A stretch of 64,000 nucleotides of DNA from Candidatus Hydrogenedens sp. (GTDB taxonomy: Bacteria > Hydrogenedentota > Hydrogenedentia > Hydrogenedentales > Hydrogenedentaceae), in NCBI GenBank assembly GCA_049968235.1, contig JBMFRC010000001.1, positions 160,001-224,000 of the forward strand, written 5' to 3'. The notes under the pieces are model-generated. The model was given only the letters and a program-made list of their open reading frames with translations, ran no database searches and had not been told where the DNA came from. Below are positions 3,299 through 34,644 of the stretch, in pieces (the first letter of the stretch is position 1; every line of letters begins with the position of its first letter). The translations under genes and the position numbers were made by a program.

Positions 3299-5197
3299 TT
3301 ATCGGGAATTATCCACATCACTCACAGACTTTAACATATCACGAACAAGGTCTACCAATTCTTGCCTCACCTGATAAACACCCTGTTTTCCCTCTTTCTT
3401 TGCCCAGCGATAACGCGAGTCCATATCGTTTATTGCACCTATATTTAATGTACCTGCCAGGATACTGGGAGTTTGTTTTTTCTCTGCAAGTTTAATAGAA
3501 ATGGTAAGTGTAATCTCTCCTATTTTTGTTTCATCCTCTTTTTGATTGCTCACATAACCTGCTGTTAAAGTTGACATATAACGAAGTAACCGAAGTAAAT
3601 CGCCCTGATTTGTTAATACTTTATTTTCAGGTTTTTTTATGGTCCATTGCCCATCAATCTGTGAAAACATAAATGATTGAGAATCTATGATAATTCCAAT
3701 TTCTTGAACTTCTGCCGGAGAAAATCGATATAAAAGTAAGCTGCGGAAACTCTCCGGGCGAACCCAGATTTGAGAAATAATTTCTTTTGAAATAATTCCA
3801 ACTTCTCCGGTGTCGTTATTAATGTAAGAGTGCAATTCATCATCAGGAACAGGGACATATCGGATTTCAAAGGTTTTTCCATCTTCCATAGTAAACCGTA
3901 ATATATCTTTTGATTTATTTAATCCTCGTTCTTCCCATGTTCCTCCGGGAAAACTTTGCACCTCTATGTTCTTTAATTTACCCAGATAATCATTTATAGT
4001 TAATACATCAATATCTTCTAACGGGGGGTCAGACATCACCCATCCTTTTTCTTTTGTTTTTTCAAGTATAAATACAGTTTGTTCACCTTCCATTCTTTCT
4101 ATTTTATTTACATTTGTTAGTTCATTTGTAAAAATTTTACGATTTCTAAAACTTTCGGGAGAACGAGGTAATAATTGCAAGAATTGAGGGTCTAATAAAA
4201 AGACAGAGTTCTGTCCTGATAATTTTGCGAAGACACCCGTACATTCCGATAATTTCAATCGTTTTCGTTTTTCTTTATCTTTCTCCTGAGTACTTTGTCC
4301 TGCGGTTTGCACTCCTCCTAAAAATAATGTTTGAGGTTTTTTGTATTTTGCATCCAGATAGGTTAATCGGCATCGAGGAGGGTCTAACCCATAATCAGAC
4401 AAACTTTCAGGATTATCTATAAAGTCTCTTGCAACACCGTATTGTATCTCTGATGCAAGAGCATTTACGGCTTCCTGGTCTGCAAGTCCTTGACTCGGTG
4501 CTATAATTTTCCATGGAGATTTTTCATTTTCCCGTTCCATTATAACCGCAGTGGATTCTTCACCAATTTTGGGCGTGTAATTTGCGTCCTGGATGTTATC
4601 ATCTTCGGTCCATATCCGCGTATATTCGATACGAATCAAAGGAGTTTCTCGCTCTGTAACTAAAAATCGGAATCGCAAATCTTCTAATGAACGATTTAAT
4701 TCAAAAAATTGTTTGTCATCCACTAAAAATACCGACTGTCCATCCATTGTTGTATAACGGTAAGTACTGGTAGGGTCAAGAAGTCCAAAATTTAGTTCTA
4801 TCGGTTCTTTCATTCCATCAATTACCGCTTTAACAGTCAAACTCGGTTTGTCCAGACCGTATGCAGTTTTATCATCCATTTTTGCAACCAGTGTTCTCTG
4901 ATTTTTTAGTTCGGCAAGATTTTTTGCAACCCGTTCCCACATCAATTGAAATGCTGGAATATCCGTAGAGGGTTTTATAAAACACCATTTCCCCTCCGTA
5001 TTTTTTTTAGCGATACATGCGAATTTTCCTGCCTGCTGTATATAAAGTTCGCGGACTGTCTGTGGCTCAAATGAAAAAACCTTCTTTACCTCTTCCCGAA
5101 TCGTTTGTTGCTCTTCCTTTTGCCAATCTAAGAACCAATAGAAAGAAAGGAGACATACCAGAATTATTATCAGAACTATGGTATTACGCCATTTCAC
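3299..5197 (-). CDS. DUF4340-like protein, the terminal gene of the GldG-type ABC operon. It has an N-terminal TM helix.
   Basis: The track ORF is 3299..5284. I prefer a GTG start at 5197 in the same frame. It sits 8 nt after a strong SD (AAGGAGGA) and overlaps the upstream TGA stop by 4 nt (GTGA). The N-terminus then reads VKWRNTIVLIIILVCLL, a TM helix. The position directly after a GldG-like gene is typical for the DUF4340 family. Confidence 0.55.
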   Translation of the reverse strand: MKWRNTIVLIIILVCLLSFYWFLDWQKEEQQTIREEVKKVFSFEPQTVRELYIQQAGKFACIAKKNTEGKWCFIKPSTDIPAFQLMWERVAKNLAELKNQRTLVAKMDDKTAYGLDKPSLTVKAVIDGMKEPIELNFGLLDPTSTYRYTTMDGQSVFLVDDKQFFELNRSLEDLRFRFLVTERETPLIRIEYTRIWTEDDNIQDANYTPKIGEESTAVIMERENEKSPWKIIAPSQGLADQEAVNALASEIQYGVARDFIDNPESLSDYGLDPPRCRLTYLDAKYKKPQTLFLGGVQTAGQSTQEKDKEKRKRLKLSECTGVFAKLSGQNSVFLLDPQFLQLLPRSPESFRNRKIFTNELTNVNKIERMEGEQTVFILEKTKEKGWVMSDPPLEDIDVLTINDYLGKLKNIEVQSFPGGTWEERGLNKSKDILRFTMEDGKTFEIRYVPVPDDELHSYINNDTGEVGIISKEIISQIWVRPESFRSLLLYRFSPAEVQEIGIIIDSQSFMFSQIDGQWTIKKPENKVLTNQGDLLRLLRYMSTLTAGYVSNQKEDETKIGEITLTISIKLAEKKQTPSILAGTLNIGAINDMDSRYRWAKKEGKQGVYQVRQELVDLVRDMLKSVSDVDNSR

Positions 5198-6858
5198 TTT
5201 AATTTCCTCCTTACAAAATAGACAAAAATTCCTGCGAACAAAACAATTTGAGGTGTCATCATCACAGCACACCAGAGCAACCATTGTTTTTGAGTGTTTG
5301 TAAGGACTATCGGTTTGTCTTCCTTTGTTGTCGGACGGATAGCAATAAGTTCATCGTGTTCCGTAAGCCATGCTAAACTATTTAATAGAAAATTAATATG
5401 TCCTCCGATACTAATCCGCTCATTGGTAATAAAATCTGCATCTCCCACGACAACAAAACGGCTTCGTTTTTTCGTTCCATCTGCCTGGTCTTTCGTTCGT
5501 ACTCCTGCTACCGCCACATAAAGTGGTCCTTCTTTCTCACCGGCCTCATACTTCACAGTTCCACCTTCTGCTAACCGAGAGAGGTCTGTTTCTGCCCAAT
5601 AATCGGGTGGTGTCCTGAGTAAAGGGAAAACCTGCAAATTCTCCGGCATTTTTTCAATAGGGTTAACAGTTCGCACTGCTCGCCATAGTAAAGGCTGGTC
5701 CATTCGTTGTGTAATGGGATGGTCAATACGCATGGAACCCCGAAAATCCATAAAGTCTTTTTCTACATTTTCAAAAGGCTGTGGGTCCGAACGGAATTCT
5801 ATTTCCCATGGATTTTTTCGCTGAATTGTAAAAGCAATATCCGAGCCGACATTGATACCCAATTGTTCCTTCAACCATGGACGCAAATTTTCTGCCCCAC
5901 TTTTGCCCAAACGAACACTTATCCATGGTTCAAATAAGATAAAAAGACGGCCCCCTGCATTTAGGAAATTTAAAATGGCATTCAATTCTTCACGGTTCAA
6001 ATCTCCTTTGGGATTATGAATAATAACTGCTTCATAACTTTTGGGAACTTCGGGCAATTCAATACTTATCTGGAAAGGCTCAATTTTATATGTCTCGCCT
6101 TCTATAATCTTTTTCGCTGTAGAAAGCCCGCCCGGACTGGTATCATCAATCGGTGTCTCATCATGTCCTGTTAAATATCCAATTTTTGTTTCGGTCTCTT
6201 TTAATACATTAATTAAAGATTGAGTGAAATCTCGTTCCTCCATGCGCGGATTAGCACCACTCAACATAATAACCCTCTGGCGAGTGCCACATTTTAATAC
6301 AATAGTTCCCTGAGTTGATGCGTGGGTTATTTCCAGTGCTTCCAGACGGGCACGGTCTATTTGCGGGTCCAAAATTTCTATATTTAAAAAGGGTGTATGT
6401 TTTTTACACTGCTCTAAAAAACGAAGGGTTTTATCTCGGGCAATTACCACAGATTCTTCGTCAATATTGATAAAGAAACACAATACTTTTACTTCTTTGT
6501 TGATTGACTGCAAAACTTTAATGGTTTGTGGGGATAATGTTCGACGACCTTCTTCTGTCAGGTCAACGGAAATATCCCATCGCAAGACGAAAGCATATAG
6601 AACTATGCAAATCCCTAAAAAAGTAAGTGTCGAAAGGACTGCATTTAAACCCGAAACAGCACGACCTGACCAACCTGATTCCATCACAATATTCCAGAAA
6701 ACTGTCCCTAACCAGATAATACCTGAAACAACAAAAACTCCTCCCAATAATAAAACCCACAGATTAAAAGCATCCTGCTTCCAAACAACATAATTTAAAA
6801 CAATCAGTAAACTGATGGCAGAAATAATACCGCTATAAGTCTTTAAATACCTTTTCAT
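5194..6858 (-). CDS. gldG: GldG-like ABC-transporter auxiliary protein (ABC-type uncharacterized transport system component)
   Basis: 554 aa with N- and C-terminal TM helices around a large periplasmic domain. It lies directly downstream of an ABC-2 permease and an ATPase. AGGAG sits 11 nt before the ATG. Confidence 0.7.
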   Translation of the reverse strand: MKRYLKTYSGIISAISLLIVLNYVVWKQDAFNLWVLLLGGVFVVSGIIWLGTVFWNIVMESGWSGRAVSGLNAVLSTLTFLGICIVLYAFVLRWDISVDLTEEGRRTLSPQTIKVLQSINKEVKVLCFFINIDEESVVIARDKTLRFLEQCKKHTPFLNIEILDPQIDRARLEALEITHASTQGTIVLKCGTRQRVIMLSGANPRMEERDFTQSLINVLKETETKIGYLTGHDETPIDDTSPGGLSTAKKIIEGETYKIEPFQISIELPEVPKSYEAVIIHNPKGDLNREELNAILNFLNAGGRLFILFEPWISVRLGKSGAENLRPWLKEQLGINVGSDIAFTIQRKNPWEIEFRSDPQPFENVEKDFMDFRGSMRIDHPITQRMDQPLLWRAVRTVNPIEKMPENLQVFPLLRTPPDYWAETDLSRLAEGGTVKYEAGEKEGPLYVAVAGVRTKDQADGTKKRSRFVVVGDADFITNERISIGGHINFLLNSLAWLTEHDELIAIRPTTKEDKPIVLTNTQKQWLLWCAVMMTPQIVLFAGIFVYFVRRKLK

Positions 6859-6873
6859 CGGCTAATAATACTC

Positions 6874-7704
6874 CTACTTTCGCCAGTTTCTCGACTCTAA
6901 GGAACGGAATGTCAAAAATATAAAGAAGGCTGTGCAAAGAAAGTAATAGGCTATGTCCTTCGGTTCGACTATTCCCAATGCCATATTCTTCGCATGATTA
7001 TCTAATGGTAGTTCTAATAATAAAGAACGAAATAGAACATATAACTTTTCAACAATATTTTTTAACATTAACGGGAAAGAATTGGGCAATGGGGCAGATG
7101 CAGGTAATTTCTCTGCAACATTTCCAATAATAAACATCATTAAATAAATTCCAAAACTTACTAAACCTGCCGTTATTGGATAGGTTATCAAGGAGGAAAT
7201 AAATAAGCCGACACTTAAGACAGCCATTCCCATTAAAAAGACAGAACATAGTCCAAATAATAAAACACTCCATTCAACATCAGTAAACGGGAGCAGTAAA
7301 CAAACATTTAAGCTAATAAGAACTGTTGCCAGTAATAACACCGCTAATGCGGAGCTGAATTTCCCAAAAATAATGTCCCTATCTCGTAACGGATAAGTCA
7401 ACATTAGTTCCATTGTTCCTCGATGATATTCCTCAGAAAGTAACCGCATGGTAATTATCGGCGATAAAAACATAATCATAATTCCACAAAATACAAAATA
7501 CGGACTTAAAAAAGTCTCCTCAAAATCAGGCACAGAGGAATAGCCAAACTGAAACGGTGACTGAGAAATTTGCACATATGTCAAAAATGACATCACGAAG
7601 GCTGTACCTGTCAATAACGCAATTAAACCTAAAATCACATACCCCGAAGGTGTTACAAAAAAACTCATGAATTCTCTTTTCCCGATGTTCCACACAGATT
7701 TCAT
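6874..7704 (-). CDS. ABC-2 family transporter permease (GldF-like)
   Basis: 276 aa polytopic membrane protein. It is translationally coupled to the upstream ATPase with a 4-nt gap. Confidence 0.75.
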   Translation of the reverse strand: MKSVWNIGKREFMSFFVTPSGYVILGLIALLTGTAFVMSFLTYVQISQSPFQFGYSSVPDFEETFLSPYFVFCGIMIMFLSPIITMRLLSEEYHRGTMELMLTYPLRDRDIIFGKFSSALAVLLLATVLISLNVCLLLPFTDVEWSVLLFGLCSVFLMGMAVLSVGLFISSLITYPITAGLVSFGIYLMMFIIGNVAEKLPASAPLPNSFPLMLKNIVEKLYVLFRSLLLELPLDNHAKNMALGIVEPKDIAYYFLCTAFFIFLTFRSLESRNWRK

Positions 7705-7708
7705 CGTT

Positions 7709-8425
7709 CTATCCTATCTCTTCTTTTGATATAGCCTTCAAAAATGCTTGTTCAATTTCTGCGGATGGCTGAAGAGGGTCAATTGGAATTCCTGCCACAA
7801 TCTCGCCTCTATTTAAAATTAAAGCACGGGAACACAACAATGATACTTCAGAAAGAATATGCGTACTTAATAGAACCGTATGTTTCTCACCTAAATTTTT
7901 TATCAACTCTCGAATCTCAACTACCTGTTGTGGGTCTAAACCAACCGTTGGCTCATCTAAAATAATTACAGGCGGAGAACCCAGTAATGCCTGTGCCAAA
8001 CCTAATCGTTGCCGATACCCTTTTGATAGAACACCCACCACACGGTTAAAAACCTGTTCTAAACCACAAGTGTGAACTACTTCATCCACCGCTGACCTCC
8101 ACTCTCCCCCTGAAATTCCTTTTACCTTTGCTACAAATTTCAGAAAAGATTTAACCGTCATTTCATCATACAAGGGGACTCGTTCCGGCAAATAACCAAT
8201 TAACCGCTTTGCCTCCAGAGGATATTCATGAATTTCATACTGTCCAATTTTCGCTATTCCATAACTTGCAGGCATAAAACCTGTAAGAATACGCATCATC
8301 GTGCTTTTCCCTGCACCATTCGGTCCTAACAATCCCACACGCTCCCCTTCTTGAATGGAAAAAGAGACATCCTTCAACGCACAAAATAAACCATAATATT
8401 TCGTTAACTTCTGCACATCAATCAT
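7709..8425 (-). CDS. ABC transporter ATP-binding protein (GldA-like)
   Basis: Walker A GPNGAGKST, signature LSKGYRQRL, and Walker B ILDEPTVGLD are all present. Confidence 0.9.
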   Translation of the reverse strand: MIDVQKLTKYYGLFCALKDVSFSIQEGERVGLLGPNGAGKSTMMRILTGFMPASYGIAKIGQYEIHEYPLEAKRLIGYLPERVPLYDEMTVKSFLKFVAKVKGISGGEWRSAVDEVVHTCGLEQVFNRVVGVLSKGYRQRLGLAQALLGSPPVIILDEPTVGLDPQQVVEIRELIKNLGEKHTVLLSTHILSEVSLLCSRALILNRGEIVAGIPIDPLQPSAEIEQAFLKAISKEEIG

Positions 8426-9312: not shown

Positions 9313-12279
9313 ATGGAACAACGGATTGGTTTTTGTTTTTTTGTATTTTTTATTTTTTTTGTTGGTTTGTTTGTATGGAGTAGTGCAGAGGTATCGGAAC
9401 TGGATTATGCAACTTCGCTGATTCGGTTTCCCGGACCGTGGCAATTTCAATTGCCTAAGGCAGGCATTATATTAGTGCGGGATGACGAACTGGATGCGTT
9501 ATGCAATCCTGACGCTGAGATTAATATAAGCGTTACTCGTGAGCCAAACATTACTACATTGCGAAAAATTTGTGAGAATGCTCAGGCAAGAGGTGTACGC
9601 ACTTTAACCATTGCATTTGACCATTTTTTTGCTCAGTACCGTCCCGGACAAAACAAACCCCGTGAATGGACACCGGATAAATCGGAGTATATTGAACGAA
9701 TAGCGAAGATAAGCCAATTCGCTCAGTCGTATGGGTTAGGTCTGGATTTAAGTTTTCTCACGCCTCTGGAATTAGGCACTGAATATCGTAAAGAAACGGG
9801 GGAATGTGGGGTATGGATGCATTTTGGGAAAGGGTTGCGGGACCCTGAAACGGGGAAATACAGTGTAGAATTGTGGAGACAGGAACGGTGGGCAAATAAT
9901 AAAGGTCCTATTGATGTTGAGTTTGCCGGAGTTCGAGTATTTGCGTTCAATGAAAATTCTTATGGGAGGCAATATAAGGTTGTTGCTCCCAACCAAATGG
10001 TAGAAATCAGCGAAACTGCACAAATTGAGGAATATCCATCGTTAAAGACAAACCATGGTGATTTCACTGCTACACGAATTCGAATTTATGGTAGTGGTGC
10101 AGTGGACAAGACGAAAGGGAACCGAATACTGGTCGTTGTTCATTATAAAACACCGGAAATGGATTATTTTAGCGACCATGCCTTAACCTACTTACAATCT
10201 TTGTGTGATAAATATATTAGTGCTGGTGTCAAAATTAATGCTCTCTATTCCGATGAGATGCATATACAGCAGGATTGGGCTTATTTTAATCATCATGATT
10301 TAGGTTCTTTTGCATTGCGTTATGTTAGTCCGGGGTTTCAAAAAGCCTTTGCTCAAAAATATGGTGAACAATATGCTGACCTTGCCCCTTATATGATTTA
10401 TTTTGTGCAGGGACAGGATGTATTTTCCAATGACCTTTTCGCTCATGAACCTATACAGCATATAATGTTACCGGGGACTGAGGGTATAATGAAAACGGTT
10501 TTGTTCCGGGCTCAATACTATCACTTCTTACAGAATGGTGTCGTTGACCTGTTTACTCAAGCCAAAAAATATCTTGAACAAAAAGTAGGATACAAGTTAG
10601 AAGCACGGGCTCATGCAACATGGGCAGAAAGTCCCACCTGTGATTTATGGCGGACAGAACGATGTCTGTATCGATTAAATTATGTTTATGAATATACATC
10701 TAATTTTATGTGGTCTAACACGGTTCATCAAGCGAGTTCCGCCTGTTATGATTATTTCAAGTGGGGTGATTTTTTAACAGGCAATGGGAATGATACCGCA
10801 GAAGGAGGTTTTCTCGACCGTAATTATTATGGTCTAGCTTTAGGGGCTTCTACCGGTGTAATTAATGATGTCCCGAACTCTTACTCTGCTCATTGGGGTA
10901 TGCCTCATGAAATTGCAGACCGACGGCAGGCAGTTTGCGATGTATATGGGAATGCCCCCTGGTTACCTTTTGCACTGGTAGAAGATTATGAACATCGCGA
11001 TACCGATGTTTTATTCTTATATCCCATTGACCTTGTCGCTTTTGATGAACGCTTCGGTAGTTTAACCATTCAATACGGCTATGGGAATTATATCACTGCG
11101 GAAAAACTTCTCGAATTAGGCTCTTTTGATAATGGTATTTGTCGTATTAAAAACCGTTCTTATAAAACATTAGTAGCATTATTTGAACCTACTCCGCCAG
11201 AAGGGCTTGTAGAAAAATTATCCTCTTTTGTAGAACATGGTGGGAACTTAATCTGGATAGGACCACCTCCTTACTTTGACTTTGCTGGAAATCCCATCCT
11301 TGATAAGTGGCAAAACTTGATGGGACTTAACTATCATCCTTCGCGGTTTTGCGGTTATTCTGCGGTTGGAATGGATATAGAATTTACAGGACCTCTTGCC
11401 CAATTATCACCTATGACTATATTAACCGATTTTCCCATAGATTCTATCTATCCTGTACAACCTCTTGAAAATACAACAACAATTGCAACATGCAAAGGAA
11501 ATATTGTTGGAACATATAAAGAGATACAAAAAGGCAAAGCAGTATTTTTAGGCTTCCGTCCACGGGACAATCAAAGTGCCAGTCTGGGAAAAGAAACTCG
11601 CTGGTTATTTGATATTTTATCTGCAATGAACGCATATCCACCTTCCGGTGTTTTTAACGGATATAATGATAATCCAGACTATTTATCGCGAAATAATCCT
11701 TATATGTTTTCCCGTTTCCCCAATGGAACTATCGCCGTGGCACCTCATTATAAGGATATTGAAGAGGGATGGGAAGGAGGTTTTGCTCGAAATCGTGGAA
11801 AAGATGAACAAATAGTCAAGGAACTAAACTTAAAACCTAATGTGATAGAATTGCAAGACTTTAAAGTTTGGGGGCATACCGTTACCTATCAAGGGAATAG
11901 AGCCATGGCATTCCGAATTGTGGATGGAAATCTACTTGCTTTTACAGGAGCCGGCTCAAAAGAGATATATATTGATGGACAAACTTTTACTTTTGCGGAC
12001 AATCCTGTGCACCACATTGCATGGGCTCCCGTTCCTCAAAACCGTTATGTTGAAAACGGAGCCGTTGCTATAGTTTTCGCAAATGGGAACGGTAATATTT
12101 ATATTCCATTCAAAGCACCTCAAAGTAAACCTTTTGAGATTATCGCAGAAGGGGCAACACCGGGAAGTACCGGTGAGAAAATACCTTTTGAATATTTAGA
12201 AACAGAAGGAATACTTACAATAGCCCTAACTCCTAATTCGCTCAACAGACTTCTGTATATAGTTCCATTGTCCCAATAA
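9313..12279 (+). CDS. Large secreted hypothetical protein (988 aa), possibly glycoside-hydrolase-like
   Basis: N-terminal signal/TM (FCFFVFFIFFVGLFVWSSA). I recognise no domain with certainty. Some segments resemble TIM-barrel GH folds and a GH42-like trimerisation or class I amidotransferase-like domain (LVALFEPTPPEGLVEKLSSFVEHGGNLIWIG). That resemblance is speculative. Confidence 0.6.
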   Translation: MEQRIGFCFFVFFIFFVGLFVWSSAEVSELDYATSLIRFPGPWQFQLPKAGIILVRDDELDALCNPDAEINISVTREPNITTLRKICENAQARGVRTLTIAFDHFFAQYRPGQNKPREWTPDKSEYIERIAKISQFAQSYGLGLDLSFLTPLELGTEYRKETGECGVWMHFGKGLRDPETGKYSVELWRQERWANNKGPIDVEFAGVRVFAFNENSYGRQYKVVAPNQMVEISETAQIEEYPSLKTNHGDFTATRIRIYGSGAVDKTKGNRILVVVHYKTPEMDYFSDHALTYLQSLCDKYISAGVKINALYSDEMHIQQDWAYFNHHDLGSFALRYVSPGFQKAFAQKYGEQYADLAPYMIYFVQGQDVFSNDLFAHEPIQHIMLPGTEGIMKTVLFRAQYYHFLQNGVVDLFTQAKKYLEQKVGYKLEARAHATWAESPTCDLWRTERCLYRLNYVYEYTSNFMWSNTVHQASSACYDYFKWGDFLTGNGNDTAEGGFLDRNYYGLALGASTGVINDVPNSYSAHWGMPHEIADRRQAVCDVYGNAPWLPFALVEDYEHRDTDVLFLYPIDLVAFDERFGSLTIQYGYGNYITAEKLLELGSFDNGICRIKNRSYKTLVALFEPTPPEGLVEKLSSFVEHGGNLIWIGPPPYFDFAGNPILDKWQNLMGLNYHPSRFCGYSAVGMDIEFTGPLAQLSPMTILTDFPIDSIYPVQPLENTTTIATCKGNIVGTYKEIQKGKAVFLGFRPRDNQSASLGKETRWLFDILSAMNAYPPSGVFNGYNDNPDYLSRNNPYMFSRFPNGTIAVAPHYKDIEEGWEGGFARNRGKDEQIVKELNLKPNVIELQDFKVWGHTVTYQGNRAMAFRIVDGNLLAFTGAGSKEIYIDGQTFTFADNPVHHIAWAPVPQNRYVENGAVAIVFANGNGNIYIPFKAPQSKPFEIIAEGATPGSTGEKIPFEYLETEGILTIALTPNSLNRLLYIVPLSQ

Positions 12280-12280
12280 T

Positions 12281-14324: not shown

Positions 14325-15545
14325 ATGAAAATCGCTATTACTTCAGATATTCATTTGGGAGATAATAATTCGAAACTCAACATGAATTCATCGGGGAATG
14401 ACATATTTTACAAATTCATGGAATTACTTTATGAGCACCCTCACCGGGGTCCAATTGATTATTTAATACTCAATGGAGATATTTTGGATTTTTCTATAAA
14501 TTCTTTTGAGAACTCATGCAACACTGCCAAAAAATTCTTCCGGGAAATTAAAAATACCCAAAAAGAAGGGCGAGATATTGTAAAGGAAATTATATACATT
14601 CCCGGTAATCATGATAAACATATATGGGATGCCGTTGAATGGGAAGTAAGTGTCATCAGGAGATTAAAAAAACATAAAGATGTCAAACCATTTAAAAGGA
14701 CACAACCGGGTATTATAGATTTATCAACAAATTCAGGGGACAAAAGATTAATATTACCCGGAGTAAGATACGTTGAAAGAAAAAGTAGATACGGAGACCT
14801 TTTTTTAGAAGGACTTTTCCAAGATGTAAATAACAAATTGCCCATAAATATAGTATATCCAAATCTCTATATCAAGGTAAATAACAGCATATATATAGTT
14901 ACTCATGGTCATATGTTTGACACGCCCTGGGTTTTATTATCTGAACTTTTAGAGGGTTGGGAAAATATTAAATGCACTGAGATTCAACATTTTGAGGAGT
15001 ACAATTATCCTCTTACATCTATGATTTGCACAGGTGTTGGGCAAGGAGGAGATGTTTTTGAATTACTTTACAGAATACTAATTGATATAAGAGAAAATAA
15101 AAAAACAACAAGGCTTGAACATACACTTGCTTATATGTTATCCCGATTATCAAAAAATTTAGGGGAAAATAAGTTCTTAGCCTTACTTAAATCCCAAAAA
15201 GTAGATACTTTTATCACTAAGATAATAATTGGATATTTTCTTAGAGGAAAGGGTATAGAAAATCCAAGAAACAATAAACAATATTTTGATATACAAAAGA
15301 ATTCAAATAAGAAAGAACGGTTGAAAAAATTTTACGAGGCAAGTTTTAATCAATTAAAACATATATCCGAGAATAATGAACAAGATAATTTTAAAAAAAT
15401 CAGTATTATCTTCGGACATACGCATATTGCTAATAAAGCTATTAAAAAAGATACCCTTTCATTGGATGGCATTAATTTAGATATATACAACACAGGGGGG
15501 GTGGTTAAAAGATACGGAAACAGGTGCAGAGATTTTCTTTTTTAA
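14325..15545 (+). CDS. Metallophosphoesterase (calcineurin-like), atypical long form. The gene is AT-rich.
   Basis: Motifs DIHLGD, GNHD and GHTH are present. In my samples the gene GC is about 30-32%, against about 44% in neighbouring genes. The protein is rich in K/N/I. Confidence 0.7.
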   Translation: MKIAITSDIHLGDNNSKLNMNSSGNDIFYKFMELLYEHPHRGPIDYLILNGDILDFSINSFENSCNTAKKFFREIKNTQKEGRDIVKEIIYIPGNHDKHIWDAVEWEVSVIRRLKKHKDVKPFKRTQPGIIDLSTNSGDKRLILPGVRYVERKSRYGDLFLEGLFQDVNNKLPINIVYPNLYIKVNNSIYIVTHGHMFDTPWVLLSELLEGWENIKCTEIQHFEEYNYPLTSMICTGVGQGGDVFELLYRILIDIRENKKTTRLEHTLAYMLSRLSKNLGENKFLALLKSQKVDTFITKIIIGYFLRGKGIENPRNNKQYFDIQKNSNKKERLKKFYEASFNQLKHISENNEQDNFKKISIIFGHTHIANKAIKKDTLSLDGINLDIYNTGGVVKRYGNRCRDFLF

Positions 15546-17685: not shown

Positions 17686-20600
17686 TTACTGCATGTATCC
17701 GGTGGCTTTTAACTGTTCAATTAGTTCCTGAGGTAAGGTTGTCTGTTCAGGTACTTTTTTATCAGTCTGTTCTTCTTTGTTTCTTTTCACCATATCCATT
17801 AACTGCAATAAATCCTGTTTTATAATTAAATAATCATTATTGGTGGACAGGTTATTTTTTTCTTTGGGGTCTTTTGATAAAACATACAGTTCTTCGGGTT
17901 TTAAGCCACGAGGATTGTCCGGATTGGCAAGGATAAGTTTTTGGTCTTTTCTTCGTATTGATTGCATAATTTGCCCTTCAGTCTCATTTTCCGCCCATGA
18001 AATAACTTCTTCGTGCTTTATGATTTTCCCATCCTTTGATAGTAAAGGTTTACCTGTAAATGTTTTGGGTTGCGTTATCCCGGCTATTTCTGTCAAAGTT
18101 GCGGATAAATCAATATGACGCACCAATCCCTCTACTTTTTGATTGGTATTAATCTCTTCAGCATAGACATCCGGAACTTTTATTATTAATGGGACATGTA
18201 GCATTTCTTGATATAGGGTAAAACCGTGCCACCAACCTTGATGGTCTTCAAATTCTTCTCCATGGTCAGCGGTAAAAATGACATAAGAATTACTTAAAAG
18301 ACCACGCTTCTCAAGTTCATTTAAAAACTTCCCAAAATATTTATCGAGATATTCAATTTCTGCAATATAGGCATCTCGCATAAGGGGAGTTAAATGACTT
18401 TTAGGAGTATTTCCTAATAAAGCACGAGGATAAAAAGTTTTTTTCTCCGGATGAAAATATGGGTCATGGGTATCCATATAATGAAGAACTAAATAGAAAG
18501 GATGCTCTTTAAACGAACGATTATCTATCCATTGCAAGGCTTCCGATGTTACAATCTCTGCGGGTTGATAATACTCTCGCACATCTGGTGGTTTGTTTAA
18601 TATTTTTAAAATAATTGATGAAATTTTTCCATAAACACGTCGCAGTATTTCGTAAATTGTTAACCTGGCACTGGAATCCCCGGCAAAAAATACCCGCTTC
18701 GGTTGTAATTCTGTATATTCAATAAAACCTTTATTAAAACCAAACAAGGAATGCACATTGGGATTATTTGCAAACCCTTTGGTAAGGTAACCATTTTGGG
18801 ACAGGACATCTGCCACAGTAGGCAAATTTGAATTAATAATGGCATTTTTGGTCGTTGCATAATGTTGTGATGGGATGACACCTGTATAAATCGAAGCAAA
18901 GGCTGGTTTTGTCCATGAAGAGTGAGAATTGCAATCTTTAAATAAAATAGATTTTTCTATAAATTTATCTAATTCAGGGGTCTTTGTCTCTATATCCGGG
19001 TTATATGCGGGTAAATAATCAGCCCGGAGTGCATCCGCAATAATGAGGATTATATTGGGTGAATTGGGATGAGCATCTGCAAGTGAAACCCGATTTTCTT
19101 TTTTCCCTCCTGATGGAACAATAGATATATAGCATGCACCCAGAAAAAAAGGTAAGAAAAGACATAGAATAATTACGACATAAAAAAACTTTTTTGACCT
19201 GCGAGATAGGTAAAATAAAACGATATAAAATACTGCTGAAAAAATAAGCATAATCCCTAAGTAATAACAACTTAATGGTAGGAATACCTGATATGAAACA
19301 GGTTTCTGGAGTAAAATATCCCGCCAATATCGCCATAGAACCAGAACAAATCCGGTGGATAACAATGTTGCAGATACAGAAACTACATAGATAAAAAGTG
19401 AAGAGGGAAATTTTTTTATCAAGAGAGGGAACCATCCTCCTATAAAAATCCCTATACCTAACCCGATACCTGCGCAGGTTATACCATACATTAAAGGTCC
19501 CCACCACAGCATTTGATATTCATGAAGGTTTGTAAATTTGTATATTATCCATAAAGATTCTACAAACCCACAGAACGCTCCTGCAGAAAAACCACCGATT
19601 ATCCCATATAAAAGATTCCTAAAAATCTGATTCCGCATTGCAAGTAATTCCTGAGGGTTGAATTGTTGTGGCAAGCCCGTTGTAAAAGTAGCCTGCGATT
19701 GGATATTAGACATCTGTTTCTGTATTTCTTCTTTTTGGGGTCGCTTCCGCAAGACAAGGAAAGGAAGACCTATCAGAAAAGGAATCACATCTCCAATCCA
19801 CCAGCCTAAATGAGCAAAAGCAACTACCTTCAATGTGTTTTCTTTTCCCCCTAATAATGTGGCAAATACAATTTCACGAATCCCTTCTCCACCGACCGAA
19901 GGTCCCAAAACAGTTCCATAAATCATCAACGGACTTGCAAATAACACATCCCACAAACTTGTATTTTCAGAACGCAATGCCATCATTGTCCCGAAATACA
20001 TAAGACAAGCACTTAGATGAACAAATAAACCACATAATATCGCCAGTAATAAATATTTGCGGTGTCCAGCATAAGCAGTAGCGGAACTCCCTAATCGATT
20101 TAAGATATTCTTAATTTTTTTAGGTATTGGAACCGCATATAAAATAATCTGAATAATATAAGGCTGGAGTAACAGAGATAAGAAAAAAAGCACAGCAAAC
20201 CCCAAAATCATCAGAATAATTATAAGAAATAGCGTGTTAAACCGCAGTAAACGAAATCCGAGTGGAAAGGTCAAAAACACAAGTGTTGTCAGTGATATAA
20301 ATCCAATAATTTTTTCAATAAATATAACCGTAGCACAACGGATAACATCGCCTGTATATCTTACAGAATCATACAAGCGATAACCATCTAGACCAATTGT
20401 ACTGGGAAGGAAAATGCCAATGGTTCTGCCAATAAACCAACTTTGAGTCATATAAGTGAACGGCATGTATAAATTCTGACCGTTTAACAGGATTTTCCAT
20501 CGGACAACTCCACTCATAATCCCAGCCAGGCGTATAAGTAATGCAAATAAAACCCATGGAAGAGCATGGGATAAATTTAATGAACGGATTTCATTGATTA

Positions 20601-20748
20601 GGGCACCAGGTTTTACCCCTCCGAATGTATCCTCAGATAAGCCAAAAGTTTCTGGCCAGAAAAGTAACACAAAAAGACCTATCGTAACACTTGCCTTTAA
20701 GAGGATAGATATCATTCGCTTCATGAAGCATGAATTTCCTTGTATCAA
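17686..20748 (-). CDS. Polytopic membrane protein with an N-terminal flippase-like (lysyl-PG synthase TM-type) region fused to a C-terminal sulfatase/alkaline-phosphatase-superfamily domain
   Basis: 1020 aa with at least 12 predicted TM helices. The sulfatase-family motifs NIILIIADALRADYL and TADHGEEFEDHQGWWHG lie in the C-terminal third. Confidence 0.65.
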   Translation of the reverse strand: MIQGNSCFMKRMISILLKASVTIGLFVLLFWPETFGLSEDTFGGVKPGALINEIRSLNLSHALPWVLFALLIRLAGIMSGVVRWKILLNGQNLYMPFTYMTQSWFIGRTIGIFLPSTIGLDGYRLYDSVRYTGDVIRCATVIFIEKIIGFISLTTLVFLTFPLGFRLLRFNTLFLIIILMILGFAVLFFLSLLLQPYIIQIILYAVPIPKKIKNILNRLGSSATAYAGHRKYLLLAILCGLFVHLSACLMYFGTMMALRSENTSLWDVLFASPLMIYGTVLGPSVGGEGIREIVFATLLGGKENTLKVVAFAHLGWWIGDVIPFLIGLPFLVLRKRPQKEEIQKQMSNIQSQATFTTGLPQQFNPQELLAMRNQIFRNLLYGIIGGFSAGAFCGFVESLWIIYKFTNLHEYQMLWWGPLMYGITCAGIGLGIGIFIGGWFPLLIKKFPSSLFIYVVSVSATLLSTGFVLVLWRYWRDILLQKPVSYQVFLPLSCYYLGIMLIFSAVFYIVLFYLSRRSKKFFYVVIILCLFLPFFLGACYISIVPSGGKKENRVSLADAHPNSPNIILIIADALRADYLPAYNPDIETKTPELDKFIEKSILFKDCNSHSSWTKPAFASIYTGVIPSQHYATTKNAIINSNLPTVADVLSQNGYLTKGFANNPNVHSLFGFNKGFIEYTELQPKRVFFAGDSSARLTIYEILRRVYGKISSIILKILNKPPDVREYYQPAEIVTSEALQWIDNRSFKEHPFYLVLHYMDTHDPYFHPEKKTFYPRALLGNTPKSHLTPLMRDAYIAEIEYLDKYFGKFLNELEKRGLLSNSYVIFTADHGEEFEDHQGWWHGFTLYQEMLHVPLIIKVPDVYAEEINTNQKVEGLVRHIDLSATLTEIAGITQPKTFTGKPLLSKDGKIIKHEEVISWAENETEGQIMQSIRRKDQKLILANPDNPRGLKPEELYVLSKDPKEKNNLSTNNDYLIIKQDLLQLMDMVKRNKEEQTDKKVPEQTTLPQELIEQLKATGYMQ

Positions 20749-31038: not shown

Positions 31039-32124
31039 TTATCTTGTTGGACTATTAACAATCTCTTTCCATGCGGAGGTTGGTTGTTCTTTGAATTGAG
31101 TTTCGTTTATAGGGTAGATAAAAAGGGCAGGGATGTGTTTTTCTTCGGCGAAGCGAAATGCTTTTTCTTTTCCCATGACCATGAAAGCAGTGGCGTAGGC
31201 ATCTGCATAGGCACAAGTGGGATGAATAACACTAACAGAAGCGATAGTATTCGGTACAGGATAACCTGTATGCGGGTCTATTTCATGGGAATATTTCTTC
31301 CCTTCCCAGAAGTAAAAATTTCGATAGTTTCCGGAGGTTGCCATTGCCAGGTCTTTGAGTTTTATTGCAAGAAAGGTAGAATGCTCCATAGAAACCGGCC
31401 TCTCAATTCCGATGTTCCACAAATTCCCGGGGATTTTCTCTCCTTTCACACGCACTTCCCCACCAACTTCTATCATATAACTATTGAAAGAGTTTTGGTC
31501 TAATAGTTCTGCTACCTTATCGACTGCATATCCTTTGGCAACTGCAGAAAAATCACACTGTATTTCGGGGTTATGTTTTTTTATTCCTTCGGGGAGAATT
31601 TCTATTTTTTGATAATCTACTTTCATTTTAGCATCTTCAATCTGTTCTCTTGTTGGGGGTTGGTCAACAAGTTTCGGTCCAAATCCCCAAATTTGAACAA
31701 GAGGAAAAACGGTAATGTCAAGTGCTCCACCTGTCTGCCGGGCTATTTCAAGAGAAATTTCAAACACCTCTCGTGTCTCTGGAGAAACAGGGAAAGGTAG
31801 ATCGTCTTTATACTGATTAAAACGACTTAACTCCGAATCGGAGTTATAGGTGGACATTAAATTATCTATTTTTGAGAGGCAGTTATGGATTTTTTCACCA
31901 ATACCTTCCGGGAGAATTTCCCCCCGGGGTAAAACAATTTTAACCTGATAAGTTGTCCCCATAGTATTGCCTGAAAAAGAAAAAATACTATACGGAGGGA
32001 CTTTTGTTGAACAGGAAATAAGAAGGCAGAGTATAAATAAAACTTCTCCCCATCGCAGGATGGGAAGAAGTTTTTTATTATTCTTACGAATATATCTGTG
32101 ATTATCCAAAGTTATCGTAAGCAA
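31039..32124 (-). CDS. apbE: FAD:protein FMN transferase (flavin transferase for NqrB/NqrC). It is a predicted lipoprotein.
   Basis: ApbE family. The lipobox is LLISCSTK. It is the last gene of the nqr operon and its start overlaps the nqrF stop. Confidence 0.8.
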
Positions 32125-33325
32125 TCATATCATCCTCCACACCTAAACTGTGAAGCATGTTCAGACATGCGGACAACATAAGAGGAGGTCCGCAAATATA
32201 GTATTCAATATCTTCCGGTGCGGGATGGTTCTTCAAGTATTCATCATGTAAAACTTGATGAATAAAGCCTGTTAGTCCTGTCCAGTTATCTTCGGGCAAT
32301 GGTTCGGAAAGGGCAATATGCCAGCGGAAATTTTCATTCTCTCTTTGTATCATATTAAAATCATCTTCATAGAAGATTTCTCGCTTGCTTCTTGCACCAT
32401 ACCAGAAGGTTACCTTACGCTTTGTTTTCAGCCGTTTGAACTGGTCAAAGATATGAGAACGCATAGGAGCCATACCGGCACCACCACCAATAAAACACAT
32501 TTCTCGATTGGTTTCTTTCGCAAAGAATTCACCGAAGGGACCGGAGATAGTAACCTCATCACCGGGTTTTAAACTGAAAATATAGGAAGACATAATTCCG
32601 GGCGGTATTCCTTTTGCATTCGGTGGGGGTAATGCAATACGAACATTGAGCATAATAATCCCTTTTTCATCGGGATAATTTGCCATTGAATAGGCACGCG
32701 TTACATGTTCATCATTAACTGCAGTAATGTCCCATAATTTAAATTTATCCCACACATCACGGAATTGAGGTTCAATATCAAAATCTTTGTAGGAAATTTT
32801 ATAAGGTGGGCATTGAATCTGAATGTAGCCACCAGCACGGAACGGAACTTCTTCTCCTTCCGGCAATTGTAGTACCAATTCTTTGATAAAGGTTGCTACA
32901 CTGCGGTTGGATTTTACTTTACATTTCCACTGGCGAACTTCAAAAATTTCCGGAGGCAATTCAATCTTCATGTCTTGCTTGACTTTTACCTGACAGGCAA
33001 GACGGTAACCTTTCTTGGCTAAACCGCGATTAATATGCGTTTGCTCCGTAGGAAGCAGTGCCCCTCCACCTTCTTTAACAACTACTTTGCAAACACCACA
33101 ACTTCCTTTCCCTCCACAGGCAGAAGGAATAAATATTTTCTGGTTTGCAAGGGTGTTTAAAAGAGTCCCTCCGACAGGAGCACTTAATGCTTTGTTGGGG
33201 TCATCATTAACGATAATTTTTACGCTACCTGAGGCTACTAATTTTGCTTTTGCAATCATCAGTAAGATAGCCAGCGTTAACACAATTAATGAGAACATTA
33301 ACATTCCAAGCAATACCGTTTGCAT
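32102..33325 (-). CDS. nqrF: Na+-translocating NADH-quinone reductase subunit F
   Basis: N-terminal TM helix. The 2Fe-2S ferredoxin motif is [12 protein letters not shown]. An FAD/NAD-binding domain follows. Confidence 0.9.
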
Positions 33326-33383
33326 GCTTGTAATTCCTTAATCCTTAAGTTTATTCAAATTAAATATTACCTTGTTCATCTGT

Positions 33384-34001
33384 TTATAGTTGAATCCCTG
33401 AGAATGCTAAGAAACCCAGAGCCATCAAACCGGTTAAAATAAAAGCCAGCCCCAGACCTCTTAATCCCGGAGGAACATTACTATATCTTAATTTTTCTCG
33501 TATTGAAGCCATACCAATAATGGCTAATGCCCATCCGATACCGGAGCCAATGGCAAAAACTAATGCATCGCCGAAGGCATAATCCCGCTGTTCCATAAAG
33601 AGAGCTGCACCCAATATGGCACAATTAACTGCAATTAATGGGAGGAATATCCCCAGAGCCGAATATAAAGTAGGAACGAAACGGTCTAAAAACATCTCTA
33701 CCAGTTGCACCAATGCGGCGATAGCACCGATATATGCAAGGAAACTTAAAAAGCCAAGGTCTACATTGGCAAGACTGGGATGTATCCATGCCATAGCCCC
33801 TTCACGAAGTAAGTAATTAAAGATAAGATTGCTGGCAACAACAGCAAGTACAAGAACAAATATGACTGCTGTTCCCAGTCCGATGGCTGTCTCGACCTTT
33901 CGTGATACTGCCATAAAAGAACACATACCTAAAAAGAAAGCCAGTGCCATATTCTCGATAAAAGCACTTTTTATAAATAAACCTGCATAATGCTCAAACA
34001 T
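33384..34001 (-). CDS. nqrE: Na+-NQR subunit E
   Basis: 205 aa polytopic membrane protein at the conserved position in the operon. Confidence 0.85.
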
Positions 34002-34008
34002 GGTAGAA

Positions 34009-34644
34009 TTACTCCTTCTCTTGCTGTTCAGGTTTCCATGTCCGAAGTAACCAGATAAGCATTGCTATCATAAATAAGGCTCCCGGAGCCATAAGTAAGA
34101 TACCATTCGGATAATACCAACCCCCTTCATTGACCGTTTTTAACACCGTATACCCCAAAATCTTTCCCGACCCGAACAGTTCCCGGAAAATACCCAACAC
34201 AATTAATATCATGCTATAGCCCAAACCATTTCCTATACCATCTAAAAAACTTACCCAGGGAGGATTTTGCATGGCATACGCCTCTGCACGTCCCATAACA
34301 ATACAGTTTGTGATGATAAGCCCCACAAATACAGATAATTGCTTGCTAATTGTAGGCACAAATGCTTTTAATATTTGGTCCGCAATAATGACCAATGACG
34401 CTATAATTGTTAATTGGATAATAATACGGACATTTGTAGGAACTAAGTTTCGTATCAAACTAATAGATAAGTTGGAGAATGCAGTTACTACTGTAAGAGA
34501 GATTGCCATTACTATGGCTTTGTCCAATTTTGTCGTAACAGCCAGAGCAGAACAAATACCTAATATTTGTAATGCAATAGGATTATTGTTAAACAATGGG
34601 TCAATTAATGCAGAGCGTTCTTTTTTCCCTAAGATAGCACTCAT
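34009..34644 (-). CDS. nqrD: Na+-NQR subunit D
   Basis: 211 aa polytopic membrane protein, paralogous to NqrE. Confidence 0.85.

What the first reader, a model, noticed from the sequence alone, without database searches (positions are those of the whole stretch)
17686..20748. Unusual fusion of a flippase-like (MprF-type TM) domain with a sulfatase-family domain
- The N-terminal half resembles the lysyl-phosphatidylglycerol-synthase or flippase-like TM region. The C-terminal third carries canonical alkaline-phosphatase/sulfatase motifs (IIADALRADYL, DHGEEF).
- Known lipid-modifying sulfatase-fold enzymes (LtaS, EptA, MdoB) have 5-TM anchors, not a flippase-like domain.
- This architecture suggests an enzyme that both modifies and translocates an envelope lipid or glycan. 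It may be an undescribed envelope-remodelling activity.
Basis: partly seen in the sequence, partly recalled or inferred. Interest (0 to 1): 0.5.

Follow-up and report, generated by a model that had tools for sequence, protein, structure and literature searches.

The report
Lipid-flippase module fused to phosphotransferase-like enzyme
This is a real, conserved three-part membrane protein (an MprF-type lipid-translocating block, a five-helix anchor and an outward-facing alkaline-phosphatase-fold domain) that is mislabelled as a sulfatase, probably flips a membrane lipid and then cuts or transfers its phosphate head group outside the cell membrane, and has never been studied.

Summary
Window 17686..20724 (-) is one uninterrupted gene (1012 aa; NCBI MGC8737133.1, Candidatus Hydrogenedens MAG). 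PF03706 (aa 22-300) and PF00884 (aa 564-891) both score above Pfam's cut-offs.

The interpretation needs three corrections.
- **Three modules, not two.** Between the 8-TM MprF-like block and the soluble domain lie five more TM helices. The protein therefore does have the LtaS/EptA/PbgA-type 5-TM anchor, and the flippase-like block is added in front of it.
- **Not a sulfatase.** The formylglycine box C/S-x-P-x-R is replaced by T-K-P-A-F. Thr is present in 262 of 263 relatives aligned, and the Asp / Asp-His metal ligands are retained, as in Thr-nucleophile phosphoryl transferases.
- **Not unique.** The fusion is in 52 of the 150 best 50%-identity cluster representatives, from MAGs labelled Hydrogenedentota, Myxococcota, Fermentibacteria and others. 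The 5TM+AP core also occurs alone, often next to a PF01663 gene.

Best reading, which is inferred: a self-contained "flip, then process outside" enzyme acting on a phospholipid or lipid-linked phosphate ester. Substrate and acceptor are unknown. No paper found describes it. I rate it a new variant of known kinds, of moderate interest.

The parts
17686..20724 (-). Whole gene, 1012 aa plus stop. The mechanical ORF extends to a TTG at 20748. The product is the three-module membrane protein, NCBI MGC8737133.1.
19750..20724 (-). Module 1, aa 1-325: the PplT / MprF-subdomain-1-like block. It has six spanning helices plus two re-entrant helical hairpins (PF03706).
20353..20460 (-). Re-entrant hairpin 1 (TM3a-loop-TM3b, aa 89-124). 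It carries the invariant residues G99, R100, G103, G111, L112, D113, G114, R116 and S120.
   Evidence: Conservation. Helix boundaries. The equivalent MprF hairpins line the central constriction between the two lipid cavities (PMC8131360).
19852..19956 (-). Re-entrant hairpin 2 (TM7a-loop-TM7b, aa 257-291). It carries the invariant residues F262, P265, I268, P275, G281 and E284; G279 and R283 are nearly invariant.
19657..19749 (-). Cytoplasmic linker, aa 326-356. It begins with the basic stretch RKRPQK, and residues 343-354 are predicted disordered.
   Evidence: pLDDT <50 at 343-354. Charge count.
19120..19656 (-). Module 2, aa 357-535: five long TM helices. The conserved residues E389, W392, W408, Y413, R465, R468 and D469 all lie at the predicted outer-leaflet interface.
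17689..19056 (-). Module 3, aa 557-1012: an alkaline-phosphatase-superfamily (sulfatase-fold) domain with an SGSH_C-like C-terminal subdomain. It is predicted to be extracytoplasmic.
18895..18915 (-). Nucleophile box W604-T605-K606-P607-A608-F609-A610, standing where sulfatases have C/S-x-P-x-R. The T605 codon is 18910..18912.
   Evidence: Alignment to 5g2v. Thr in 97 of 100 locus ORFs and in 262 of 263 database proteins. Coordinates.
19012..19044 (-). IIADALRADYL. D564 is the first metal ligand. The second Asp of the sulfatase DD pair is Ala565.
   Evidence: Asp in 263 of 263
18250..18267 (-). DHGEEF. D820 and H821 are metal ligands. They are followed by the invariant H828 and H833.
18460..18483 (-). 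HYMDTHDP, holding the invariant H748, H753 and D754. These are candidate residues for a second metal site or for substrate binding.
   Evidence: The role is inferred only.

Best explanation
The gene encodes a self-contained, three-module inner-membrane enzyme.

**Module 1 (aa 1-325)** is a PplT/MprF-subdomain-1-type lipid translocation block. I propose that it moves a glycerophospholipid or another lipid-linked phosphate ester between the leaflets of the cytoplasmic membrane. This step is inferred.

**Module 2 (aa 357-535)** is a five-helix anchor of the kind that precedes the catalytic domain in LtaS, EptA and PbgA. Its conserved charged and aromatic residues sit at the outer-leaflet interface. 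I propose that they hold the lipid head group there. This step is also inferred.

**Module 3 (aa 557-1012)** is an outward-facing alkaline-phosphatase-superfamily domain built on the sulfatase scaffold. Its active site has been converted to the Thr-nucleophile, metal-dependent type: D564, T605, D820-H821, plus conserved His residues. I propose that T605 attacks a phosphodiester or phosphomonoester of the presented lipid to form a phospho-enzyme intermediate. The phospho group would then pass to water or to an envelope acceptor such as LPS, a glycan or another lipid.

**What is shown.** The architecture, the folds, the active-site residue set and its conservation, the predicted topology, and the distribution of the fusion.

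**What is inferred.** That translocation happens, the chemistry (phosphoryl rather than sulfuryl transfer), transfer versus hydrolysis, and the substrate.
For: - **Single conserved ORF.** Both Pfam domains score above their cut-offs.
- **Active site.** T replaces the formylglycine Cys/Ser. Among relatives, Thr is present in 262/263, D564 in 263/263, D820 in 262/263 and H821 in 263/263. This matches the LtaS set (E255/T300/D475/H476) and the EptA set (E240/T280/D452-type Asp/H453) listed in PMC7576196.
- **Sulfatase features lost.** Of the features S1 sulfatases use to bind sulfate and calcium, the Arg of CxPxR is Phe and the second Asp of the DD pair is Ala. GFANNPN stands where I expect the GKWH box (placed by eye; pattern from PMC5066984). 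SulfAtlas states that Thr cannot give formylglycine.
- **Modularity.** The 5TM+AP core exists alone in many bacteria, with 5 predicted TM in 12 of 12 cases. It makes up 63 of the 150 best representatives, against 52 fusions.
- **Selection on the translocation path.** Invariant residues of module 1 concentrate in the two re-entrant hairpins: 18 of 48 invariants fall in 72 of 340 residues. In MprF these hairpins form the gate between the lipid cavities (PMC8131360).
- **Topology.** Loops assigned to the inside carry K+R 19.0 against 11.0 outside, over equal loop length. This puts the AP domain outside.
- **Repeated association.** The fusion persists in four groups that are interleaved with unfused forms on the AP-domain tree. 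In L028 a stand-alone PplT gene of the same subtype (E=3e-50) overlaps a PF01663 AP-superfamily gene and lies 6 kb from a 5TM-AP gene.
- **Self-contained unit.** Fusion genes have no conserved neighbours.
- **Background.** The MprF TM domain acts as a promiscuous lipid scramblase (PMC11980842, title and abstract).
Against: - No experiment exists for any member, and no paper was found.
- The PplT profile finds no MprF sequence in the PDB, with 0 hits at E<=10. MprF's R304-E280 gate and YRxxY motif have no obvious counterpart in TM8, so the translocation mechanism may differ or be absent.
- By sequence the soluble domain is closer to true sulfatases (E=7e-23) than to LtaS or EptA (E=1e-7 and 4e-3). 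It falls far below every NCBIfam cut-off.
- Sulfotransferase genes lie near family members in three loci (L081, L005, L028). This keeps a sulfur-related role alive.
- I could not read model coordinates or PAE. Whether the PplT periplasmic cavity faces the 5-TM block and T605 is therefore untested.
Confidence: 0.45

Rival explanations
1. The protein is an LtaS/EptA/PbgA-type extracytoplasmic enzyme whose PF03706 block is only an enlarged membrane anchor, oligomerisation platform or lipid-binding platform. No translocation takes place, and the catalytic domain works on lipids already in the outer leaflet.
For: - The 5TM+AP core is evidently functional without the PplT block in many bacteria.
- MprF's gate residues are not recognisably conserved.
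- A sequence search with the PplT profile finds no MprF in the PDB.
Against: - Invariant charged and Gly/Pro residues cluster in the two intramembrane re-entrant hairpins (R100, D113, R116, P275, E284). That pattern fits a conserved polar pathway inside the membrane, not a passive anchor.
- The fusion is maintained down to 28-31% identity across phyla.
Confidence: 0.22
2. The protein is a PbgA/YejM/LapC-like non-catalytic sensor or regulator. In this reading the AP-fold domain and the TM interface bind LPS or another envelope lipid to report its level, rather than transforming it.
For: - PbgA also gives the longest, though weak, match to the 5-TM block.
- The host encodes a GT9 heptosyltransferase-like gene nearby, so it is probably an LPS-bearing diderm.
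Against: - The full catalytic set (Asp, Thr, Asp-His and several His) is essentially invariant in 263 relatives. According to PMC7576196, PbgA has Arg451 at the position of the His of the Asp-His pair.
- The NCBIfam LapC/YejM model scores 30.7 bits against a cut-off of 825.
Confidence: 0.08
3. The protein is a genuine sulfatase, or a sulfuryl-transfer enzyme, acting on a flipped sulfolipid or sulfated glycan.
For: - The best sequence and fold matches are S1 sulfatases.
- Sulfotransferase genes lie within a few kb of family members in L081, L005 and L028.
Against: - The defining (C/S)xPxR box is absent, and Thr cannot be converted to formylglycine (PMC5066984).
- The Arg of the box is Phe and the second calcium-binding Asp is Ala. 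GFANNPN stands where I expect the GKWH Lys/His box (placed by eye).
- No formylglycine-generating enzyme or anSME gene was seen among the annotated neighbours.
Confidence: 0.05
4. The fusion is an assembly or annotation artefact: two adjacent genes joined by a sequencing error.
For: None beyond the predicted disordered linker at aa 343-354.
Against: More than 100 independent full-length orthologues from many samples and phyla share the same architecture.
Confidence: 0.01

Closest known systems
MprF (aminoacyl-phosphatidylglycerol synthase/flippase) and the wider PplT / UPF0104 / PF03706 domain proteins (YbhN, GpgF, AglD-type fusions)
   Same: - The design logic is the same: a lipid-translocating block is fused to a lipid-modifying enzyme.
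   Different: - There is no aminoacyl-PG synthase (GNAT) domain, and no MprF subdomain 2 (TM9-14). A different 5-TM block stands in its place.
- The enzyme partner is predicted to lie outside the membrane. The order of events would therefore be 'flip, then modify', not 'modify, then flip'.
- MprF's gate motif (YRxxY and Glu) is not recognisable.
- Sequence similarity to solved MprFs is undetectable by HMMER.
LtaS / EptA (MCR-1) / OpgB / GacH-type membrane phosphotransferases
   Same: - An N-terminal multi-TM anchor (5 TM in LtaS and EptA) is followed by an extracytoplasmic alkaline-phosphatase-fold domain.
   Different: - Sequence scores are far below the family cut-offs (30.3 bits against 970 for LtaS; 15.5 against 561 for EptA).
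- The catalytic domain belongs to the sulfatase branch of the superfamily and carries an SGSH_C subdomain.
- There is an extra PplT block at the N-terminus.
- The 5-TM block shows no detectable fold match to EptA's.
PbgA / YejM / LapC
   Same: - It is a 5-TM protein with a sulfatase-like periplasmic domain bearing Thr in place of the formylglycine residue.
   Different: - According to PMC7576196, PbgA has Arg451 at the position of the His of the Asp-His pair, and the same paper discusses an LPS-pathway role for it. Here the full catalytic set is invariant.
- The NCBIfam score is 30.7 against a cut-off of 825.
- PbgA has no PplT block.
S1 formylglycine-dependent sulfatases (SulfAtlas family S1)
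   Same: - The first metal-binding Asp and the D-H-G motif are shared.
   Different: - The catalytic (C/S)xPxR box is T-K-P-A-F.
- The second Asp of the DD pair is Ala.
- GFANNPN stands where I expect the GKWH box.
- The protein is membrane-embedded through 13 helix elements rather than secreted.

Membership tests
S1 formylglycine sulfatases | Catalytic box (C/S)-x-P-x-R, the site where formylglycine is generated | tested here: not met
   The query WTKPAF aligns to the SgPSR box of 5g2v. Thr is present in 97/100 and 262/263 relatives. The pattern definition comes from PMC5066984.
S1 formylglycine sulfatases | Second signature G-Y-x-T...G-K-x-W-H (sulfate-binding Lys/His) and the DD calcium-binding pair | tested here: not met
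   The sequence reads GYLTKGFANNPN, with no K-W-H (this register was placed by eye). IIADALRAD aligns to mmtDDhttq, so the second Asp is Ala.
S1 formylglycine sulfatases | Sulfatase alpha/beta fold with a C-terminal subdomain | tested here: met
   [not shown]
LtaS/EptA-type membrane phosphotransferases | Five TM helices directly preceding the catalytic domain | tested here: met
   AF2 helices 357-396, 405-436, 442-470, 478-509 and 511-535. Stand-alone relatives have 5 TM in 12 of 12 cases. This is a prediction only.
LtaS/EptA-type membrane phosphotransferases | Thr nucleophile plus Asp/Glu and Asp-His metal ligands in an AP-fold domain | tested here: met
   [not shown]
LtaS/EptA-type membrane phosphotransferases | Catalytic domain on the outer face of the membrane | tested here: met
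   By analogy with MprF the N-terminus is inside, and there are 6+5 membrane crossings. K+R is 19.0 inside against 11.0 outside. This is a prediction, not an experiment.
LtaS/EptA-type membrane phosphotransferases | Score above the curated family models (NF053595 LtaS, NF007160 EptA) | tested here: not met
   30.3 bits against 970, and 15.5 bits against 561.
LtaS/EptA-type membrane phosphotransferases | Transfer of a phospho-alcohol from a phospholipid donor to an acceptor | not testable with these tools
   This needs biochemistry.
MprF | PF03706 subdomain 1 with two inverted-repeat re-entrant hairpins | tested here: met
   [not shown]
MprF | Subdomain 2 (TM9-14) and the C-terminal aminoacyl-PG synthase domain | tested here: not met
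   [not shown]
MprF | Arg-Glu gate / YRxxY motif on TM8 | tested here: inconclusive
   TM8 here (aa 297-325) contains no Arg, while E284 on TM7b is invariant. No residue-level alignment to MprF could be obtained.
PplT-domain proteins (sensu Hauser et al. preprint) | Presence of the cl04219/PF03706 domain, alone or fused to an enzyme | tested here: met
   Definition in the preprint 10.1101/2022.03.11.483950. Sulfatase-type partners are not named there.
PbgA/YejM/LapC | Score above NF038282, and the characteristic degenerate active site | tested here: not met
   30.7 bits against 825. The full Asp-His site is retained here.

The most novel reading that the evidence does not exclude
The fusion may define a previously unrecognised way of remodelling membranes. 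In this reading a PplT scramblase feeds an inner-leaflet lipid directly into an outward-facing Thr-nucleophile AP-superfamily enzyme within one polypeptide. That enzyme would generate a new outer-leaflet head group or decorate the envelope. This would be the mirror image of MprF: 'flip, then modify' instead of 'modify, then flip'. A further twist remains open. The repeated proximity of sulfotransferase and PF01663 genes to family members could mean that this Thr-bearing sulfatase-scaffold clade handles sulfated or phosphosulfated lipids or glycans by a chemistry not yet described.
Probability: 0.2. Interest if true: 0.7.

Novelty: new variant of a known kind. Interest (0 to 1): 0.42.

Why it matters
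**PplT biology.** PplT/MprF-type domains are the only candidate general phospholipid translocators known in bacteria, and their function outside MprF is largely untested. A natural fusion to an extracytoplasmic enzyme gives a built-in read-out, because product should form only if the lipid is delivered outward. That could make PplT translocation directly testable.

**Annotation.** The case also shows that a large PF00884 clade is mis-annotated as 'sulfatase' or 'arylsulfatase A-like'. Thr replaces formylglycine in 262 of 263 relatives examined. This matters for sulfatase counts in metagenomic surveys.

**Envelope of uncultured phyla.** Hydrogenedentota is known here only from metagenome-assembled genomes (all family members found were MAGs), and I am not aware of any description of its envelope lipids. 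This protein is a conserved, phylum-wide envelope enzyme there.

Tried and rejected
- **Literature.** 'LPG_synthase_TM + sulfatase' gave 0 papers. 'PF03706' gave one irrelevant paper. 'flippase / sulfatase-like / fusion / LtaS' gave nothing on this architecture.
- **Window gene in the contig index.** The look-up for P0001 was not on record.
- **Conserved gene neighbourhood of the fusion.** All-against-all comparison of ORFs around 14 fusion loci and the window found no shared neighbour.
  - Pfam contexts of four Hydrogenedentota members differ from one another.
  - Myxococcota fusions sit between FeoB and an amidase.
  - The window neighbours are ThiL, NnrD, MenF and MenD.
  - I therefore rejected any operon-based functional assignment.
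- **Sequence link to solved MprF.** The PplT profile against PDB sequences gave 0 hits at E<=10. Residue-level mapping onto MprF's functional residues was therefore not possible.
- **AFDB Foldseek survey.** The library was not available.
- **Model coordinates and PAE.** Scripts cannot read them. Inter-module packing and the position of T605 relative to the PplT cavity could not be measured.
- **Missed stop or two genes.** Considered and rejected.
- **True sulfatase.** Considered and rejected.
Full report

Yes. The minus strand carries one uninterrupted ORF at 17686..20748 (1020 codons from a TTG). An ATG at 20724 lies 11-17 nt after an AAGGAA box. It gives a 1012-aa product identical to NCBI MGC8737133.1, named 'MAG: sulfatase-like hydrolase/transferase [Candidatus Hydrogenedens sp.]'.

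Pfam finds the following, in ORF numbering:
- PF03706 LPG_synthase_TM at aa 22-300: 61.7 bits against a cut-off of 33.4.
- PF00884 Sulfatase at aa 564-891: 148.4 bits against a cut-off of 25.
- PF16347 SGSH_C at aa 837-986.

The two quoted motifs are at 19012..19044 and 18250..18267. The 'two genes joined by a missed stop' escape is excluded. All 120 best database homologues listed (38-100% identity) are about 1000 aa, and all full-length ones carry both domains.

From here on, residues use the 1012-aa numbering.

**2. Anatomy: three modules, not two.**

The full-length AlphaFold2 model was built from a 36-sequence alignment (A1) and has mean pLDDT 82.9 and pTM 0.65. It shows:
- *Module 1, aa 1-325.* Six long TM helices plus two pairs of half-helices (89-103/112-124 and 257-273/282-291). 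This is the layout described for subdomain 1 of Rhizobium tropici MprF (PMC8131360).
- *Linker, aa 326-356.* It is basic and partly disordered.
- *Module 2, aa 357-535.* Five long helices.
- *Module 3, aa 557-1012.* An alpha/beta domain.

- LtaP gives 30.0, LtaS 28.1, EptC 28.1, EptA 27.6, MCR-1 26.8, and PafA/NPP about 26.

Topology was assigned by giving each loop a side according to the MprF subdomain-1 layout. Loops on the inside then carry K+R 19.0, against 11.0 outside, over 105 loop residues each (family means). This gives an N-terminus inside and an AP domain outside.

**3. The catalytic domain is not a sulfatase.**

In the HMMER alignment to the GlcNAc-6-sulfatase 5g2v, the box carrying the formylglycine precursor (…S-g-P-S-R…) aligns with W-T-K-P-A-F.
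- The nucleophile position is Thr, and the essential Arg is Phe.
- The second Asp of the sulfatase DD calcium site is Ala (IIADALRAD against mmtDDhttq).
- By eye, GFANNPN stands where I expect the GKWH signature.

SulfAtlas defines the catalytic pattern as …[CS]-x-[PA]-x-R…. It notes that about half of the PF00884 seed carries Thr instead, that Thr cannot yield formylglycine, and that such proteins must not be called sulfatases (PMC5066984).

The Thr is not a quirk of this one sequence.
- It is present in 97 of 100 AP-domain ORFs in 80 related loci.
- It is present in 262 of 263 database proteins aligned.
- D564 is present in 263/263, D820 in 262/263, and H821 and H833 in 263/263.

An Asp/Thr/Asp-His set is the metal-plus-nucleophile constellation of LtaS (E255/T300/D475/H476) and of EptA and MCR-1, as listed in PMC7576196. 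NCBIfam gives only far-sub-threshold hits to every curated family: choline sulfatase 134 bits against 433, LapC 30.7 against 825, LtaS 30.3 against 970, EptA 15.5 against 561. The domain is thus a Thr-nucleophile offshoot of the sulfatase scaffold, with no characterised member that I could find.

**4. Distribution and modular evolution.**

A scan of one genome per GTDB species returned 596 confirmed relatives, of which the best 80 were kept. I built my own HMMs of the three modules and searched those loci.
- *Complete fusion.* It is present in L001-L013, L016, L021 and L027. These are MAGs labelled Hydrogenedentota, Myxococcota/Polyangiales, Fermentibacteria, 'Proteobacteria TMED72', Deltaproteobacteria and Nitrospirales.
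- *5TM+AP protein alone (about 600-700 aa).* It is present in L014, L015, L017, L018, L020, L022, L025, L026, L029, L037 and L059, among others.
- A hydropathy count gives exactly five TM segments before the AP domain in 12 of 12 such proteins.

An exhaustive profile search of 1.84 billion cluster representatives returned 42,331 hits at E<=1e-30, mostly through the AP domain. Of the 150 best, 52 carry PplT+AP, 63 carry 5TM+AP, and 31 show only the AP domain at my threshold.

On a rough neighbour-joining tree of the AP domain, the fusions fall into four groups interleaved with unfused forms. This means either an old fusion with repeated loss of the PplT block, or repeated fusion. The tree is not robust enough to decide between them.

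**5. Genomic context.**

The window offers no functional hint.
- Downstream on the same strand are NAD(P)HX dehydratase and ThiL.
- Divergently upstream are MenF and MenD.
- A GT9 heptosyltransferase-like gene lies 3.5 kb away.

No neighbour is shared between the window and 14 other fusion loci. Four Hydrogenedentota contexts differ from each other:
- a sulfotransferase and a PMT_2 GT-C gene;
- GT4 and RhaA;
- a divergent GT2 with DegT;
- BamA upstream and a PF01663 gene downstream.

Myxococcota fusions sit between FeoB and an amidase. The fusion therefore behaves as a self-contained unit.

The unfused 5TM-AP gene behaves differently. It is directly adjacent (<70 nt, same strand) to a PF01663 'phosphodiesterase/NPP' family gene in ten loci. 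In L028 a stand-alone PplT gene of the same subtype (E=3e-50 to my module-1 HMM) overlaps a PF01663 gene. It lies in an island that also holds a second PF01663 gene, a GT2, a sulfotransferase, a 5TM-AP gene and a soluble Thr-'sulfatase'. PplT, the Thr-AP enzyme and PF01663 enzymes thus recur together in more than one genetic arrangement.

**6. Mechanism (inferred).**

The conserved residues of module 1 are enriched in the two re-entrant hairpins.
- 18 of 48 invariant residues lie in 72 of 340 positions.
- They include R100, D113, R116, P275 and E284.

In MprF these elements separate the cytoplasmic and periplasmic lipid cavities. I read this as selection on an intramembrane polar pathway, that is, on translocation, rather than on a passive anchor.

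The conserved residues of module 2 are E389, W392, W408, Y413, R465, R468 and D469. All lie at the predicted outer-leaflet ends of helices 9-11. I would expect an enzyme of the LtaS/EptA type to hold the head group of its lipid substrate there, beneath the catalytic domain.

The most economical model has three steps.
- The PplT block equilibrates or delivers a lipid to the outer leaflet. MprF's TM domain is reported to be a promiscuous scramblase (PMC11980842).
- The 5-TM block presents its phosphate ester.
- T605 forms a covalent phospho-intermediate that is resolved by water or by an envelope acceptor.

Loss of the cationic residues of the sulfatase site favours a monoanionic diester over sulfate or a monoester, but this is inference. 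Substrate, acceptor and the choice between transfer and hydrolysis remain open. My confidence in the general scheme is about 0.45.

**7. Rivals.**
- *PplT as a mere scaffold (0.22).* Supported by the viability of the unfused core. Weakened by the intramembrane conservation pattern.
- *PbgA-like non-catalytic sensor (0.08).* Supported by structural proximity. Weakened by the fully conserved catalytic set.
- *True sulfatase (0.05).* Contradicted by the missing formylglycine box, but three sulfotransferase neighbours keep it from zero.
- *Artefact (0.01).* Refuted.

**8. Comparison with what is known, and novelty.**

The protein works like a combination of two known kinds.
- One is the PplT-fusion proteins. 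The preprint 10.1101/2022.03.11.483950 counts 148 architectures and names aaPG synthase, GT-A/GT-B, kinase, HAD, O-antigen ligase, methyltransferase and 'phosphotransferases (cl37506)'. It does not mention sulfatase or AP-fold partners. I could not resolve what cl37506 is.
- The other is the 5-TM Thr-nucleophile AP-fold enzymes of the LtaS/EptA/PbgA type.

It is not a member of any curated family among these (section 3; see also the membership table). I found no publication on the architecture. I therefore rate it 'new variant of a known kind'.

A specialist would find the 'flip, then modify outside' arrangement interesting and experimentally useful, but not astonishing. I set interest at 0.42.

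Noticed in passing
L014, L017, L018, L019, L020, L025, L026, L029, L031, L059 (for example L014 9425-11314 plus 11307-12971): There is a conserved gene pair in other phyla. The stand-alone 5TM + Thr-'sulfatase-like' gene sits directly next to a PF01663 (type I phosphodiesterase/NPP family) gene, less than 70 nt away on the same strand. Two PF01663 subtypes occur: one has a Tat-like RRDFLA signal and one has no signal. The pair is rare next to the fused form, being seen only in L008 and L084.
   Followed up: partly
L028 734-16617: A Myxococcota MAG carries an island rich in alkaline-phosphatase-superfamily genes. It holds a stand-alone PplT gene overlapping a PF01663 gene, a second PF01663 gene with a GT2, a polytopic spermine-synthase-like protein, a sulfotransferase, a 5TM-AP gene, a DUF3604 gene and a soluble Thr-type 'sulfatase'. 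It looks like a split version of the fusion embedded in a larger envelope-modification locus.
   Followed up: partly
L081 6416-7432; L005 5583-6584; L028 8315-9319: PAPS-type sulfotransferase genes (PF00685/PF13469) lie within a few kb of family members in three loci, two of them Hydrogenedentota fusions. This could be coincidence, or it could hint at a sulfur-related substrate.
   Followed up: no
window 9313..12279 (+): This 988-aa ORF has no Pfam hit at E<=0.001. It lies just upstream of a ComF-like phosphoribosyltransferase gene and a GT9 heptosyltransferase-like gene.
   Followed up: no
window 3299..8425 (-): Four genes form a set: an ABC ATPase, an ABC-2 permease, an ABC_transp_aux (GldG-like) protein and a DUF4340 protein. 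This resembles a gliding-type or auxiliary ABC export system.
   Followed up: no
window 14325..15545 (+): A 406-aa calcineurin-like metallophosphoesterase gene sits between the GT9 gene and thiL. Its role is unknown, and it was not linked to the finding.
   Followed up: no
window 31039..34644 (-) and onward to about 38059: ApbE is followed by an NqrF-like protein (Fer2 + FAD + NAD domains) and two Rnf-Nqr membrane subunits. This is probably a Na+-NQR operon.
   Followed up: no
Database annotation of relatives: JGI names many family members 'arylsulfatase A-like enzyme', although the formylglycine box is absent in all of them. This is a systematic PF00884-driven mis-annotation of the kind SulfAtlas warned about.
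   Followed up: yes
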